This document shows, piece after piece, positions 12,363-61,030 of a stretch of 64,000 nucleotides of DNA. Positions within the stretch are counted from its first letter, which is position 1. Each line of letters starts with the position of its first letter. A model generated the notes under the pieces. That model did no database searches, was not told where the DNA came from, and saw only the letters and a list, made by a program, of their open reading frames with translations. Source of the stretch: Lama guanicoe (lineage: Eukaryota); assembly GCA_013239625.1 (NCBI GenBank), contig MU056898.1, positions 2,013,717-2,077,716 on the forward strand, in the 5' to 3' direction. A program made the position numbers and the translations under genes.

Positions 12363-14451
12363 CTTTCCCATGTGGCAGCTAGACCCAGGAATGAGACATT
12401 CAGTTCCTCAATCCCGCTGACACGTTTCAGGCCAGGAGGGGCGGCTCCGAGGCGCCAGGGCCTCTCAGGCCTGAGGGTCCAAGTAGAGACCCTGCTCAGA
12501 GCCCAGGAGCAAGGGACTCTGGGCGGAAGGCTGGCGTAGGAAGGCCTCAGGGAGAACAAGGCCCTTTCTCCCCAGTGCAGACTCCGAGCCGCAGTCATCA
12601 AGACAAACGGCAGGAGAGGCCCTCTGGGCTTCCTCAGTTGTGGGAGCCCCCGGGTCCTGCCCTCTGCTCTGGACTAGACGTTCAGAGCAGAAGTCATCCT
12701 CTCCAGGGAGAAGGACCAGAACACTTAAAAGAACTAGGACAGAGTGGCACAGCTCAGAGCAGCTGGACACGTGGCATAGCGACGGTCCTGACCCCGGCCC
12801 CGCTGGTGTGCAGGCCCGCAGGGTGATGGTGGTGACGTGCTCCTGTCACTGGGTGTCCGCCTGCCACACGTGGAGCTCACTGAGCTCGGGGCAGCTGGTC
12901 TCCCGGTCCCCACGGCTCAGCTGTGAGAGGCCACGAGAAGGTGGCCTCATGGCTCAGGCACCGACCAGTACTTGCAGGGACCAGGGGCAGGTCTACCGCC
13001 CTTTGCCCTGTTCCTGCGATAGCCCCTCACCAACCCGTGACACCATCACCTGTGTTTCCCACCTCAGCTCTGCTGCTCCCAATAACCCTGTTTGAATCCT
13101 GAGGTTGTCTCTCCACCCGGCCTGCACACCTGCGTGGGCACCAGTGAGCAAAGGCATGGACACAGCGGGTTGGGAGCACGCGGAGCAGCAGCTGCTGCAC
13201 AACTGGACTACGGTGGTTTAACCGTAGGCAGAAAGCAGCCCGCGGCAGGTCTGCCCGGTACCGTGTACTCGCAAAGTGGGGCTACAGCCCGGGGGTCCAG
13301 CACAGTTCTGGCTGTTTACAAAAGCAGACAGGGGACCAGGGGTACCTCGTCCAGAGGAGATGGAGACCCTGCATCGTGGGTAGGGGGTGCAGGCACTGCT
13401 GGGAGGCCATGTCCCGCGTGACCGTGTTTCCACACGAGAAGAGTGCTGGGTTCAAGTGTGTCACTGGCTTGAGAACGGTCCCTCCCAGCCCCCTACACGC
13501 AGCCTGGATTCAGAAGCAGAGCTGGTTCCAGGGCTGTTCCAGGAAACTTGTGCCATGTCGTAGGGCTGAGGACAGACTCCAGTGAGCGGGCCGTGTTTCT
13601 GGCCACGCGTGGGAAAGAAGGCCAGGCTCCGACTGGACTCTGGTCCAGGTGACTCACCCACCGTCCTTACTCAGAGGCACTGCACTCCGGCAGATCTGGT
13701 GGGGTGAACTGTGCACCTTCTCAAACCTCATTGGTTCATAGCTCAGGTTCAGCCACACGAGCTGACCGTCCAACCTCGCAGGTAAGAGAGGACACACCCA
13801 CCACTGTCTGCTCACCTGCAATTCACTGGGCCGACCCTGTACCAGCGCACCTGTCTCAGGTGCAGGGCTGTGTCTGTAGACAAGTCTGCCTTCTCAGAGC
13901 AGAAGGCGATGTGAGCAAACGTTCAATGCGGAAACAGCGCCAGGTGAGCTGGAGGCCAGGACCCAGAGGGAGGAGGGTGCTGTGAGGGGCTCTCGGGGGA
14001 GAGCAGGAGTTGAGGCCCCAGGACAAGTGGTGGGGGGAGGCCAACACCTGCCAGGGCCACCAGGCGGGCACAAGGTGGGGACGTCAAGGGCGGCCTGGCC
14101 AGAGAAGCCAGGGGACACAGATCTGACAACACATTGCACCTGGATGTACAATGGATTCTCGACACTCCCCGATAAGAGGACAGCCAGCCAGTCTAAAACG
14201 GGGAGCAGAGATGTGAGCAGACACGTAACAAGGGACGTGGACCAGCACAGAGGACGCGGGCGCCTGGTGGGGTCTGCGGACGGCAGCTGAAGCAGCGGTC
14301 ACAGCACAGGACGAGGAGCCCGTCGGAACTCACAGGGCTCTGCCTCTGAGGGGGAGCCTATTGGTGTGAGTCCCGTCACAATACAAGCAGCAGCCCGTCT
14401 GAGCGCTGAGGGCGGGCGGGGGGGGGGCATGGGCCTGGGCCAGGACAGGAG

Positions 14452-14552
14452 GGGCCGGACGCCCCGGGGGGGCCAGCAATGGAGCCGGGACGCCCCAGGG
14501 GGGGCCAGCAATGGGGCCAGGATGCCCCAGGGAGGGGCCAGCAATATGCCGG
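14452..14552. repeat. GC-rich minisatellite, about 32 bp x 3
   Basis: Repeated gacgccccagggggggccagcaatgg unit. Confidence 0.8.
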
Positions 14553-31485: not shown

Positions 31486-31662
31486 ATGGCCTCGCCGTCG
31501 CCTTACCCGCTGGAGGAGGACGAGGCTCTGCGAGGCTGCGAGCTCTACGTCCAGAAGCACAGCGTCCAGCAGGTGCTCAGGGACTGCATCGTGCACCTCT
31601 GCGTCTCCAAGCCCGACCGCCCCATGAGGTTCCTCCGGGAACACTTCGAGAAGCTGGAGAAG
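31486..31662 (+). CDS. PRKAR1B: PRKAR1B (PKA type I-beta regulatory subunit) first coding exon, dimerisation/docking domain; the exon starts at 31469
   Basis: Acceptor ctccccAG at 31467-68, Kozak ACCATGG; [59 protein letters not shown]; donor AAG|GTCAGT; 177 nt. Confidence 0.97.
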
Positions 31663-32571: not shown

Positions 32572-32814
32572 TCTGTGGTCCCTCCCCCCTGTGTGGACGT
32601 GGGCTCTGTGGCCCCTTCCCTGTGTGGTCGTGGGATCCGCAGCCCCTCCCCTGTGTGGACGTGGGCTCTGCGGCCCCCCTGCTCTGTGGACGTGGGCCCT
32701 GCAGCACCCCCGCTGTGTGGACGTGGGATCTGTGGCCCCTCCCCTGTATGGACGTGGGATCTGCGGCCCCCCCGCTGTGTGGACGTGGGATCTGTGGTCC
32801 CTCCACTGTGTGGA
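32572..32814. repeat. Minisatellite, about 31 bp x 8, consensus tctgYggcccctcccctgtgtggacgtgggM
   Basis: Directly visible tandem units. Confidence 0.92.
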
Positions 32815-46989: not shown

Positions 46990-47103
<114 letters not shown>

Positions 47104-52282: not shown

Positions 52283-52608
52283 NNNNNNNNNNNNNNNNNN
52301 NNNNNNNNNNNNNNNNNNNNNNNNNNNNNNNNNNNNNNNNNNNNNNNNNNNNNNNNNNNNNNNNNNNNNNNNNNNNNNNNNNNNNNNNNNNNNNNNNNNN
52401 NNNNNNNNNNNNNNNNNNNNNNNNNNNNNNNNNNNNNNNNNNNNNNNNNNNNNNNNNNNNNNNNNNNNNNNNNNNNNNNNNNNNNNNNNNNNNNNNNNNN
52501 NNNNNNNNNNNNNNNNNNNNNNTCATGATCACCAGCACATCGTCACCATCATCACTACCACCGTCACCATCACATCATCACCATCATGGTCATCATGATT
52601 ATCATCAT
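52283..52608. repeat. N-run followed by a (CAT/CAC)n low-complexity tract; a MIR relic lies immediately upstream at about 52195-52282
   Basis: catcaccatcatggtcatcatgattatcatcatc; MIR-like tctctgggcttcagtttcctcaagtgtcaaatgagggtaataa. Confidence 0.75.
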
Positions 52609-54037
52609 CTTTGTGGCCCTCTGACTTGAGGATGGGGCTAAGCTAGTCAGCTTCTGTCTGGATGAAGCTTTGCCCCTCTGAGATTGGCCTAACCATCCAG
52701 GTGGCGCCCATAGCCAGAGCCCTCTGCCCCTCAGCGCTGAGTCTGAGGAAGGGGCTGCGGTGGCCCTGAGACCACTCCACAGTGTCATTCTCTGTATCAT
52801 CCTGGACCTGAGGCAGGTGATCAGGCTGCTCTGGCCTTGGGACACACAGGAAGGATCTGGAAGGCTGGCTGGTTGCTCTGTCTCTGTGAACAAAGTTTTC
52901 CAGGCCCAGTGAGGGGAGGGCCCTTGCCCCTTGCTCCAGGCCATGCACCACATGTCCGAGCTGGCACTGGGAATGGGGTGTCCTCGTGCCCCAGGTGGCC
53001 CCTTCAGGGCCCTTCTGAAGAGCTGAGTCCTGGTGAGGGTACTGGTGGTGGTGGGTGCAGCCTTCTCACTTGGGTGCAGCTGTTGTGAGCAACAGCAGAT
53101 CTGTTGTCCTTCCTGGGGACACAGAAGGTGGCCCTTGGGATGCTGTGGAGCCCTGAGATGTGCTGTGGGTCCCGGCTGGTCCCCTGAGGGTGCACCCCAG
53201 GCCTGTGGGGGGAGCCCTTGGGTTCAGTCAGATTCAATTAGGTTCCTTCCTGGTTCCCCCGACCAGGGTGCCTGGGACAGGGCATCCCCTGGGAGCCCCA
53301 GAAGTGTGATGGTTAGGAGGCCCTGTGTGTGTGCCTGTAGGGCAGGGTCCAGGCAGCAGCACTGTGCGTCCAGCCCTCGGCTGGGGCCCCCTTACTGGAG
53401 CCACCAGATGGGCTGGCAGGCAAGGCATCTTCCTGGGCAGCCTTGCTGGCAGCGGGTCCTGCTCCCTGGGCTCTGATAAGACAGGCCTCTGGCTGCACCC
53501 CTGGTGCACAGCTGTCTGTCTCCCCCCCACCCGGTGATCTCTGCGGTCTGTTTTTCCACCGGTTGTCTCAGGCCCCCAGGTGATGGGAAAAACACGCTAG
53601 TCTGCTGAATTCACACATGGCCTGGGGGACCGGCTCTGCTTCTCCAGCCTGGCTCCGTCTTTGGGGCTTACTGCTTCCCTTTAGGCAACACTGGAAAACA
53701 AAATTAGCATTTTGGGAAGTGCGGGGTCTCATCCAGGGAGATGCTTAATTGCTTGAACATGCAAAGAATTTGATTTTCTTTCTTACACAAAGCTAGGCTT
53801 GCTCCGGGCAGGGGAGACCTCCAGTCAGCACCTCGTGGGCCACGTGGCCCCAGCAGGGTTCGGAGGCTGTGCTCAGCTGGGGGGCTGAGAGCGGGTCTCT
53901 GGATCCTCCACCACACGGTGTGCTCTGGGCTAGCCCCGGACCTCAGGCCTCGTCTGTATCGTGTTGTTAGAACAATGCTGGCATCATCGTGGCCCCTGGA
54001 CAGATGAGGCACAGAGAGGTTACGCAGGTTGCCCAAG

Positions 54038-54062
54038 AGGGTTAGGGTTAGGGTTAGGGTTA
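54038..54062 (+). repeat. Short interstitial telomeric repeat A(GGGTTA)4
   Basis: agggttagggttagggttagggtta, perfect. Confidence 0.92.
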
Positions 54063-54202
54063 TGTTATGTCAGAGAATGTTTTGCCTGTGTTTTCTTCTT
54101 GGAGATTTATGGTGTCATGTCTTATATTTAAGTCTTTAAGCCATTTCGAGTTTATTTTTGTGTACAGTGTGAGGGAGTGTTCTGACTTGATTGATTTACA
54201 TG
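54063..54202 (-). mobile_element. Internal L1 ORF2 fragment, little diverged, with no tail or TSD
   Basis: Minus strand reads [45 protein letters not shown], a conserved ORF2 C-terminal segment. Confidence 0.88.
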
Positions 54203-54411
54203 GGGGAAAGCCACTGTTCTTTTTTAAACAAAGTCCAAGAAGGAACCAGGAAGGTGCATGGTGTCTTCCCTGTGTGGACATTTTCCGATGCATCTTCCTG
54301 GCTGGGTTCTCATGTCAGCCCCACAGCCCTGCCTCTTCCTCTCAGACGTCCTCACTCTTGGGTCAGAGGGACTGGCTTCACGTTCTGGAAGATGTGACCC
54401 TCCTTACGCTA

Positions 54412-54801
54412 ATGTGGTGTGTGTGCTGTGTCTGGTGTGTGTGTTCATGGTGTGTCTGTGTGGTGTGTATGTGGTGTGTGGTATGTGTATGTGGTATGAA
54501 TGTGCGTGCTGTGTGTCTGGTGTGTCTGTGTTACGTGTGCGTGGNNNNNNNNNNNNNNNNNNNNNNNNNNNNNNNNNNNNNNNNNNNNNNNNNNNNNNNN
54601 NNNNNNNNNNNNNNNNNNNNNNNNNNNNNNNNNNNNNNNNNNNNNNNNNNNNNNNNNNNNNNNNNNNNNNNNNNNNNNNNNNNNNNNNNNNNNNNNNNNN
54701 NNTGTGTGTATGTGGTGTGCGTGATGTGTGTGTGTGGCGTGTGTGTCTGTGTGGTGTGTGTGTGTTCGTGGTGTGTCTGTGTGGTGTGTATGTGGTGTGT
54801 G
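54412..54801. repeat. Degenerate (TG)n / GT-rich tract with an internal N-run at 54545-54702
   Basis: Directly visible. Confidence 0.9.
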
Positions 54802-59829: not shown

Positions 59830-61030
59830 TCGTCTGTGCAGACCTGGTGGGGGCGGGCGGTGGCTGCGGGGCTGCGGGGGAGGGGAGGCCGCCGCTGTGG
59901 ACACCCTAGGTGGCTGCGGGGCTGCGGGGGTGGGGAGGCCGCCGCTGTGGACACCCTCGTGCGCGTCTGCGTGGACACACGTTCTCGTTTCCCTTGGATG
60001 GGCTCCTAGCGGAGGAATTTCTGGGTCGTATGCTAACTTCATGTCTGACTTTTTAGGAAACCACCCAACTGTTTTCCGAAGCGGCTGCACCGTGCACACT
60101 GCCCGCCGCGCTGCACAAGCGCCCGTTTCTCCACGCCCGCGCTGGTGTTCCGTGCCATCTGTCCTCTGATTGCAGTCGCTGTGTGGGTGCGTGGGGGAAT
60201 CTGGTGGTGGTGGTGTTTGCATTTCCCTGATGACTGCTGAGATCGGGTGTCTTTTCATGTGCTTCTTAGCCGTTTGTACAACTTCTTCGGCAAAATGTCT
60301 GTTCAGATCTTTTGCTCACTTTTTGAGTCCTGGTCTTTGTGCTGTTGAGTTTCAGGAGCTCTCTGTCTGTTCTGGATACGAGCCCCTCATCAGATGCATG
60401 GACTGCAGGTGTCTTCTCCCAGTCTGTGGTTTGGGCATTTCATTTTCTGAACGGTGTCTTTTAAAATCCAATTAATCAACTTTTTTGTTTCGTGAATCAT
60501 GCGTTTGTTGTCATATCTAAGAAATCTGTGCCTCACCCGCATCAGTGAAGACTTTCTCTTAGAAGACGTTTTCTTCTGAAAGTGTTTCATTGTTTCAGCT
60601 CTTCCATTTAGGTCTGTGATCCATTTTGAGCTACTTTTTGTGTGTGGTGTGAGGTAGGGGTCTAAGGTCATTTTTCTCATGTGGATTTCCAGCTGTCCCA
60701 TCACCATTCGTGGGGAAGGCTGTGATTCCTGCAGTGACCTGTCCTGGAACTTGGTCAAAACTCAACTGACCATAAATGTGGGGGTTTGTTCCTGGGCCCT
60801 CAGCTCCGCTCCGCTGGCCTGTGTGCCACCTCGTCACCCCGATGCTGCAGTCTCGATGACTGTGGCTCCGCAGTCAGCTGTGAAATCAGGCCGTGGAAGC
60901 CCTCTCCCGCTTTGTTCTTCTCTTTCAGAACCGTCTGGGCTATTTTAGGCCCTTTGCATCTCCATATGAATTTCAGATAACTTTCTATTTAAAAAGTCTG
61001 CATTGAGTTTATAGATCAGTTTGGTGCAGA
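59830..61030 (-). mobile_element. Old antisense L1 (ORF2 3' part and 3'UTR)
   Basis: Minus-strand LDPYLTPHTKSSSKWITDLN, TNPHIYGQLSFDQ and LAYDPEIPPLGAHPRE motifs. Confidence 0.85.
59859..59957. repeat. 50-bp tandem duplication (2 copies, 1 mismatch)
   Basis: ggtggctgcggggctgcggggg(a/t)ggggaggccgccgctgtggacaccct twice. Confidence 0.92.

What the first reader, a model, noticed from the sequence alone, without database searches (positions are those of the whole stretch)
54001..54202. Telomeric repeat fused to an internal L1 fragment inside a truncated MIR: a probable composite double-strand-break repair scar
Seen: a MIR core (gaggcacagagaggttacgcaggttgcccaag) stops abruptly and is followed by a perfect A(GGGTTA)4. 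The join passes through shared TTA and a duplicated TTATG (ggg-ttatg-ttatg-tcagagaatg) into about 140 bp of antisense internal L1 ORF2. That fragment has no poly(A), 3'UTR or TSD, and the MIR does not resume afterwards. Known: short interstitial telomeric repeats and endonuclease-independent L1 captures are each linked to break repair. Inference: a single break was patched with both telomerase-type repeats and L1-derived sequence, with loss of flanking DNA. The fragment is still AT-rich and has an open frame, so the event looks recent.
Basis: partly seen in the sequence, partly recalled or inferred. Interest (0 to 1): 0.7.

Follow-up and report, generated by a model that had tools for sequence, protein, structure and literature searches.

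The report
Telomere repeats fused to L1 fragment
Four perfect telomere repeats are fused to a 138-base piece of an old LINE-1 jumping gene inside an intron, likely the fossil of one germline event in which telomerase extended a DNA end cut by LINE-1 and that end then primed LINE-1 copying; a second site in the same genome suggests that the two enzymes have met like this more than once.

Summary
The anatomy is real: a MIR-type piece ends at 54037, A(GGGTTA)4 fills 54038-54062, and a tailless antisense L1 piece runs 54065-54202. Two first-reader claims fail. The event is not recent: the piece is as diverged as its old subfamily (11/138 from the majority; 13.4% to copies versus 13.2% between copies), and 26 of 29 dead copies also have an open frame there. 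It may not be endonuclease-independent: a perfect TTTT/AA L1 cut site lies 19-23 nt beyond the L1 5' end, where one copy of a target-site duplication would end (chance 0.2-0.9%). Best reading (0.45): one event at an L1 cut, with telomerase first and then internally primed L1 reverse transcription. Rivals: an ordinary L1 later shortened by a telomerase-patched 1.25-kb deletion (0.28), or an endonuclease-independent patch (0.2). Of 77 short telomeric tracts sampled genome-wide, 4 abut L1 (no enrichment), but one sits exactly at the inversion junction of an intact, TSD-flanked L1. No outgroup was available and no reads were laid. The scan noted two other telomere/L1 composites in this genome (not tested here).

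The parts
53983..54037 (+). 5' piece of a MIR-type dispersed repeat (name recalled). Core anchor 54006-54037. By eye against the copies' majority line, the piece begins near 53983 and lacks about 9 nt between two TGAGG words.
   Evidence: 65 genomic matches of the anchor vs 0 control; majority line of 63 copies. The nhmmer hit on the anchor itself is circular because the anchor was chosen from the window.
54038..54062 (+). Perfect telomeric tract A(GGGTTA)4, G-rich strand on +. The first A may belong to the repeat flank (1 nt in register).
   Evidence: 13 of 63 MIR-type copies have A after the anchor, 48 have G.
54060..54069 (+). TTATG twice: TTA shared between tract and L1, TG extra; a 5-nt stutter at the junction.
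   Evidence: L1 alignments start at 54065; family 5-mers before TTATG.
54065..54202 (-). 138-nt internal L1 ORF2 piece from an old subfamily, downstream of the RT domain and about 1.15-1.2 kb short of the L1 3' end; 47 open codons.
   Evidence: A related copy's 579-aa frame (L145), which spans the homologous segment, carries RVT_1 at E 9.7e-22.
54203..54206 (+). GGGG not explained by L1; could be flank, untemplated bases, or an in-register GGG of telomeric origin.
   Evidence: None of 46 old copies continues with GGGG; chance of GGG about 0.03.
54207..54225 (+). Candidate lone copy of a target-site duplication (19 nt; up to 23 if the Gs are counted), possibly also the 3' remnant of the MIR-type repeat.
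   Evidence: TSD geometry of family copies; MIR resumption not significant.
54222..54227 (+). Canonical L1 endonuclease site TTTT/AA, in the polarity that fits an antisense insertion.
   Evidence: background 0.4-0.9% within 7-23 nt and 0.2-0.4% within 17-23 nt of a random point.
31558..31662 (+). Host gene context: RIIa (PKA regulatory-subunit dimerisation) exon. A further exon-like peptide lies near 47068; the next exon motifs were not found in the window or the following 10 kb, so the site is intronic.
   Evidence: PF02197, E 1.1e-8, over cut-off.

Best explanation
Four telomere repeats are joined through a shared TTA to a 138-nt tailless piece of an old L1, and this likely records one germline event at an L1 endonuclease cut, in which telomerase would have extended the trimmed left end and that telomeric 3' end would then have primed L1 reverse transcription inside ORF2. 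Shown: the order flank / G-rich repeats / antisense L1 on one strand, the TTA overlap and TTATG stutter, the missing L1 3' end, a TTTT/AA site 19-23 nt beyond the L1 5' end, and an age equal to the subfamily's. Inferred steps: (1) L1 endonuclease nicked at 54225/54226 and the second strand about 19 nt away. (2) The left end lost the overhang and more flank, about 75 nt in all if the MIR-type repeat does resume at 54207, so it could not prime on the poly(A) tail. (3) Telomerase added four repeats. (4) The terminal TTA paired with the L1 RNA about 1.2 kb inside its 3' end; the RT slipped once and copied 138 nt. (5) The cDNA was joined to the right end, which left one copy of the would-be duplication. 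The product is an inert intronic fossil with no sign of function.
For: Cut site: TTTT/AA ends 7 of 24 TSDs found among 55 family copies; 6 of 24 TSDs are >=17 nt and 2 of 24 are >=19 nt. The background is 0.2-0.4% within 17-23 nt, so the site is roughly tenfold likelier with an L1 cut than without (my arithmetic). Deletion size: only 1 of 65 rodent deletion-type tracts lost more than 86 nt (1107 nt), so about 75 nt is ordinary and about 1.25 kb is rare. In-genome precedent: locus L229/L270 is an intact young L1 with a 14-nt TSD (13/14 match) ending in TTCT/AA and a twin-priming inversion (arms end at +244 and +246 on the L1 axis). Its 19-nt telomeric tract lies exactly at the inversion junction: GGGTT and AG are L1-templated and 12 nt are added. 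L091 has a 36-nt tract replacing about 453 nt inside an L1. Under independence, 0.04-0.17 tracts with a >=400-nt L1 deletion are expected among 77, and 2 are seen if ours is counted so (P 0.001-0.013). All 4 L1-abutting tracts have the G-rich strand on the cDNA strand (p 0.06; 0.125 without ours). Papers: break ends pair at internal sites of L1 RNA and telomeres are used as primers (PMC4014453 passages; PMC4700185 passages).
Against: The implied duplication (19-23 nt) is at the long end of the family's range (10-21). A 24-nt tract as old as the subfamily (8%) stays perfect only about 14% of the time, against about 44% if it is younger; later slippage could blur this. Tracts are not enriched next to L1: 4 of 77 vs 9 of 120 control points, Fisher p 0.77. 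MIR resumption is not significant, so the deletion size is unknown. The 12-nt filler at L229 could also come from repeated template switching between its own GGGTT and AG ends. None of 21 human non-classical L1 insertions sat at an endonuclease site (PMC1920257). No outgroup or read evidence.
Confidence: 0.45

Rival explanations
1. Two events. An ordinary 5'-truncated L1 of about 1.3 kb inserted by target-primed reverse transcription at the TTTT/AA site. A later break inside it was repaired with loss of about 1.25 kb (L1 3' end, poly(A), second TSD copy and part of the MIR-type repeat) and addition of telomeric repeats.
For: Explains the cut site equally well. The perfect tract suits a younger age (0.44 vs 0.14). 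Many family copies end within about 120 nt of the same 5' point. PMC1920257 warns that such deletions mimic non-classical insertions. No enrichment of tracts at L1. Deletion is the commonest modification at telomeric insertions (50% in rodents).
Against: Needs a kilobase deletion, seen in 1 of 65 rodent deletion loci, though about half of the rodent loci were uninformative and may hide large ones. Polarity and the TTA overlap would be coincidence or microhomology joining. It does not account for L229.
Confidence: 0.28
2. One reading: an endonuclease-independent break patched by telomerase and L1 cDNA. This includes the case where the L1 piece went into a new or existing tract between TTA and GGG, so that GGG at 54203-54205 is the tract's end.
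For: 3'-truncated, tailless, no paired TSD, extra non-L1 bases at the L1 3' end, downstream half of L1: all typical of human non-classical L1 insertions. Polarity and TTA overlap. GGG in register has a chance of about 0.03. L1 endonuclease also cuts TTAGGG DNA in vitro (PMC10887698 passages).
Against: The TTTT/AA site at TSD distance would be coincidence (0.2-0.9%). Divergence from the cut-site consensus is a defining feature of that class.
Confidence: 0.2
3. No telomerase or no RT: the tract grew by slippage or templated insertion from local GGTTA words, or the L1 piece was captured recently as DNA from an old copy, or the junction is an assembly error.
For: The flank holds a GAGAGGTTA word about 20 nt upstream. 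Only 40 of 2856 candidate copies were scored, so a near-identical donor is not fully excluded. No reads were laid.
Against: 78 exact telomeric 25-mers vs 0 reversed control. The best copy is 93%, and the piece is as diverged as its family. Runs of 6 organism codes hold most sampled words.
Confidence: 0.07

Closest known systems
Short interstitial telomeric sequences inserted at double-strand breaks (PMC2246262: parts 1-4 of 7 and supplementary files 3 and 5 read; PMC7215372: passages)
   Same: Four exact hexamers, abrupt edges inside a pre-existing repeat, possible 1-nt register at the break, likely flank loss.
   Different: Carries a 138-nt L1 ORF2 piece in cDNA polarity with a junction stutter. 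The additions tabulated there are 'random sequence' or TERC, none labelled L1 in the files read.
TERC-ITS, telomeric repeats inserted with a retrotranscribed TERC fragment (PMC2246262; PMC8537989: passages)
   Same: One-step insertion of telomeric repeats together with an RNA-derived fragment.
   Different: The fragment is L1 mRNA-derived, not TERC, and here the repeats come first and would serve as the primer.
Non-classical / endonuclease-independent L1 insertion (PMC1920257: parts 2-3 of 7 and passages; Morrish 2002 and 2007 known only through passages of PMC4700185, PMC4014453, PMC5110952)
   Same: 3' truncation, no poly(A), no paired TSD, non-L1 extra bases, microhomology; telomeric ends as primers in cultured cells.
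   Different: A canonical cut site lies at TSD distance; the telomeric DNA is interstitial and only four units long; the word 'telomer' does not occur in PMC1920257.
Internal-priming L1/Alu insertions (as described in passages of PMC5402677; the original paper PMC2784234 was not held)
   Same: Tailless element explained by priming inside the RNA.
   Different: Those keep two TSD copies; here one copy is missing and the primer would be telomerase-made DNA.

Membership tests
Short interstitial telomeric sequence (s-ITS) | At least four TTAGGG units, under one mismatch per unit, not in a degenerate subtelomeric array | tested here: met
   25 nt, 100%; not flagged subtelomeric-type; 357 kb from the contig end, and both contig ends lack arrays.
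Short interstitial telomeric sequence (s-ITS) | One-step appearance relative to an empty orthologous site | not testable with these tools
   The genome has no relatives in the search tool; a flank motif found nothing in metagenome contigs.
Short interstitial telomeric sequence (s-ITS) | Break-site bases in register with the hexamer | tested here: inconclusive
   A at 54038 occurs in 13 of 63 MIR-type copies: at most 1 nt.
Non-classical (endonuclease-independent) L1 insertion | 3' truncation and no poly(A) tail | tested here: met
   About 1.15-1.2 kb of the family's 3' end is absent.
Non-classical (endonuclease-independent) L1 insertion | No target-site duplication | tested here: inconclusive
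   No paired duplication is visible, but 54207-54225 has the geometry of a lone copy.
Non-classical (endonuclease-independent) L1 insertion | Marked divergence of the site from the TTTT/A consensus | tested here: not met
   Exact TTTT/AA 19-23 nt from the L1 5' end. Caveat: judged on the filled site; the published test uses the empty site.
Non-classical (endonuclease-independent) L1 insertion | Pre-insertion site verified in an outgroup | not testable with these tools
   As above.
Classical TPRT L1 insertion | Poly(A) tail and two TSD copies | tested here: not met
   could have been lost later (rival 1).
Classical TPRT L1 insertion | Endonuclease site at TSD distance from the 5' end | tested here: met
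   the distance is at the long end of the range.
L1 (LINE-1) ORF2-derived sequence | Homology to dispersed copies with RT domain, tail and TSDs | tested here: met
   The homologous segment itself has no Pfam family. The subfamily name could not be assigned (no repeat library).
MIR SINE | Match to the curated MIR consensus | not testable with these tools
   No Dfam/Repbase here; dispersed-repeat status is shown, the name is recalled.
TERC-ITS | Flanking fragment derived from telomerase RNA | tested here: not met
   The fragment is L1 at 90-93% over its whole length; TERC itself was not searched.

The most novel reading that the evidence does not exclude
Telomerase acts directly on L1 integration intermediates in the mammalian germline. 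It caps either the target end (this locus) or the stalled first-strand cDNA (L229, at the twin-priming junction; perhaps L091), and integration then goes on. A distinct class of interstitial telomeric repeats would thus be made during retrotransposition, always with the G-rich strand on the cDNA strand, and an endonuclease-cut, telomerase-extended end would be a natural primer for internal L1 reverse transcription.
Probability: 0.38. Interest if true: 0.7.

Novelty: new variant of a known kind. Interest (0 to 1): 0.45.

Why it matters
Telomeric insertions at breaks and tailless L1 patches are each well described. Telomere-primed L1 copying is known from repair-deficient cultured cells, at chromosome ends. 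A germline fossil in which telomerase and L1 reverse transcriptase worked in turn on one strand at an internal site would show the two enzymes competing for the same integration intermediate in vivo. It would also explain part of the 'random additions' at interstitial telomeric repeats. The idea is directly testable in any mammal with good assemblies, by counting telomeric filler at L1 inversion and truncation junctions and its polarity. For this locus alone the result is a harmless intronic scar whose history stays ambiguous without an outgroup.

Tried and rejected
Recent origin: rejected. The open frame is shared by 26 of 29 dead copies and GC is 0.34 vs 0.33; the majority of a set dominated by a younger subfamily differs at 19/138; rates are equal to the old family. 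The first estimate, 8/138 against copies picked on this very segment, is biased low and was replaced by 11/138 against 17 copies picked on a neighbouring segment. Of those, 29 were fetched, 22 reached the segment, and 5 were dropped as short or truncated. MIR resumption: three tests, none significant. Enrichment of telomeric tracts beside L1: none. That survey is a sample: 101 loci were examined and 24 set aside as subtelomeric-type; contig-end arrays were not examined; one search listed only 100 of 244 matches; the L1 library covers mainly the 3' part of two subfamilies; control points come from the same loci. Assigning the piece to one of two old subgroups failed (3 diagnostic sites like A, 2 like B, 1 neither). 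No TSD was found for L091. Pfam on four ORF2 pieces spanning the segment gave nothing real. A metagenome scan with a flank motif gave 0 matches. No reads were laid, so the junctions lack read-level proof; runs with word shares near 0.76-0.80 say nothing either way. PMC4003774 (passages) held nothing relevant; PMC3251045 and PMC2784234 were not held. Nine paper searches listed no report of telomeric filler at L1 inversion or internal-priming junctions. Most listed papers were seen only as listings, the library lacks most subscription journals, and the supplements of PMC7215372 and PMC8537989 were not opened and may hold such loci.

Full report
Observation. The window reads, on the + strand: a dispersed-repeat piece ending at 54037; AGGGTT x4.2 at 54038-54062 with no mismatch; TG; then L1 from 54065 to 54202 in antisense; GGGG; and a flank ending in six Ts and three As at 54220-54228. 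The tract is the only one in the window. The genome has 78 exact matches of the 25-mer, at 36 places by my count of the list, and none for the reversed control, so such tracts come from telomeric sequence and not from chance. The left piece matches an anchor found 65 times in the genome (control 0), and 63 copies give a conserved continuation that the window lacks; I call it MIR from memory. The L1 piece matches 29 fetched copies at 90-93%. These copies run on for 1.15-1.2 kb to a tail, and a relative carries an RT domain upstream of the segment. The site is intronic in a PKA regulatory-subunit gene. No reads were laid. Word shares in public runs (20 of 24 rows at 0.76-0.90; 6 organism codes) make an assembly error unlikely but do not prove the junction.

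Age. The genome holds a younger L1 subfamily (about 3-5% from its majority), from which the piece differs at 19 of 138 sites. Against 17 old-family copies chosen on a neighbouring segment, the piece differs from the majority at 11 of 138 sites (family median 8.0%), and its mean distance to the copies, 13.4%, equals theirs to each other, 13.2%. So the L1 DNA is as old as an extinct subfamily, roughly twice as diverged as the youngest one seen. At a generic mammalian rate (recalled, not measured) that is tens of millions of years. No near-identical donor turned up (best 93%; 40 of 2856 candidates scored).

The right flank. For an antisense L1, one copy of the target-site duplication follows the 5' end and stops at the nick. 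Here TTTT/AA lies 19-23 nt past the last L1 base. In the family itself, 24 of 55 copies with both ends in view show a duplication: 10-21 nt long, 6 of 24 at 17 or more, 2 of 24 at 19 or more, 7 of 24 ending in TTTT/AA. A random point in this GC-rich window has such a site 17-23 nt away 0.2-0.4% of the time, and 7-23 nt away 0.4-0.9%. That favours an L1 cut by about tenfold (my arithmetic), although the distance is long. Human non-classical insertions are defined by lacking such sites, and later deletions are known to mimic them (PMC1920257). Whether the MIR-type repeat resumes is open: the best-scoring place is 54207, 55 nt along the model, but p is 0.16-0.24 and the test is weak. The four Gs are not L1 (0 of 46 copies) and could be flank, untemplated, or telomeric.

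One event or two. A normal L1 later cut back by a telomerase-patched break needs about 1.25 kb of loss. In the rodent tables 1 of 65 deletion loci lost 1107 nt and the rest at most 86 (PMC2246262 file 3), though about half of all loci there were uninformative. In its favour, a perfect 24-mer survives 8% divergence 14% of the time against 44% if it is younger. To get a base rate I sampled the genome's tracts: 101 loci examined, 24 set aside as subtelomeric-type, 77 short; 4 abut L1, against 9 of 120 control points, which is no enrichment. Their anatomy is not random-looking, though. L229/L270 is a young L1 with a 14-nt duplication ending in TTCT/AA and a textbook inversion (arms ending at +244 and +246 on the L1 axis). 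Its 19-nt tract sits exactly at the inversion junction: 16 of 17 young copies supply the first GGGTT, 13 of 14 the last AG, and 12 nt are added. A later break would hardly hit that point and leave both arms whole, so these repeats were most likely added during integration, by telomerase or, less likely, by repeated template switching. L091 has a 36-nt tract in place of about 453 nt of an old L1, next to a second jump; no duplication was found. L244 looks like a plain interruption of an older L1, with one side matched. All four have the G-rich strand on the cDNA strand (p 0.06; 0.125 without ours). Two tracts with large L1 loss are more than independence predicts (0.04-0.17 expected), but that figure borrows the rodent deletion rate and counts our own locus.

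Mechanism. The reading that uses most features is a single event at an L1 cut: trimming of the left end, four repeats from telomerase, pairing of the terminal TTA inside the L1 RNA, one slip giving TTATG twice, 138 nt of cDNA, and joining to the right end with one duplication copy left. The sequence features are shown; every enzymatic step is inferred. Internal pairing of break ends and priming from telomeric ends are described for L1 (PMC4014453; PMC4700185), and telomeric repeats have been recovered as patches at induced breaks (PMC5110952, parts 1-2 of 4). My odds, a judgement from the ratios above: 0.45 for this, 0.28 for two events, 0.20 for an endonuclease-independent patch, 0.07 for slippage, DNA capture or artefact.

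Comparison and novelty. The tract meets the sequence definition of a short interstitial telomeric repeat; the empty-site test could not be run. The L1 piece works like a non-classical insertion but fails that class's cut-site criterion on the filled site, and it lacks the tail and paired duplication of a classical one. It resembles TERC-ITS in joining repeats to an RNA-derived piece, but the piece is L1. Nine searches listed no paper on telomeric filler at L1 junctions, within a library that lacks most subscription journals. Two earlier scan notes describe other telomere/L1 composites in this genome; I did not test them and they are not counted as support. Verdict: a real, old, functionless scar; a new variant of known kinds; interest 0.45, most of it owed to the testable possibility that telomerase acts on L1 integration intermediates.

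Noticed in passing
L229 / L270 (G000:C5895, near 10130923): Young, TSD-flanked, twin-primed L1 with 12 added nt of telomeric repeat exactly at the inversion junction. It also carries a nested ~120-nt L1 3'-end insertion. This is a cleaner case than the finding itself.
   Followed up: partly
L091 / L170 (G000:C7460, near 154063): 36-nt telomeric tract replacing about 453 nt inside an old antisense L1, about 30 nt from a second jump, followed by what looks like a sense L1 5' part (recalled identification) with an LTR-like insert; no TSD found.
   Followed up: partly
L099 (G000:C4304 start), L076, L097: Telomeric tracts flanked by direct duplications of 50, 13 and 8 nt, the duplication type of interstitial telomeric insertion.
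   Followed up: no
L228 / L275 (G000:C5829, near 440286): Telomeric tract with an apparent ~10-nt flanking duplication, lying between two sense L1 3'-end pieces.
   Followed up: no
L141-L169: At least two L1 generations in this genome: one about 3-5% and one about 8-10% from their majorities; no fully open ORF2 among 150 scored (longest frame 673 aa).
   Followed up: partly
window 54000-54014: The MIR-type piece lacks about 9 nt between two TGAGG words, a small microhomology-type deletion (by eye).
   Followed up: no
window 54413-54801: Degenerate TG-rich repeat on both sides of an N run, about 210 nt right of the scar.
   Followed up: no
window 32584-32814, 14451-14545, 59859-59957, 52523-52609: Minisatellites with 31-, 32- and 50-nt units and a degenerate TCA run.
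   Followed up: no
L031 and L050: Two MIR-type loci on different contigs with nearly identical flanks, probably a segmental duplication or redundant assembly; L050 was dropped from the models.
   Followed up: no
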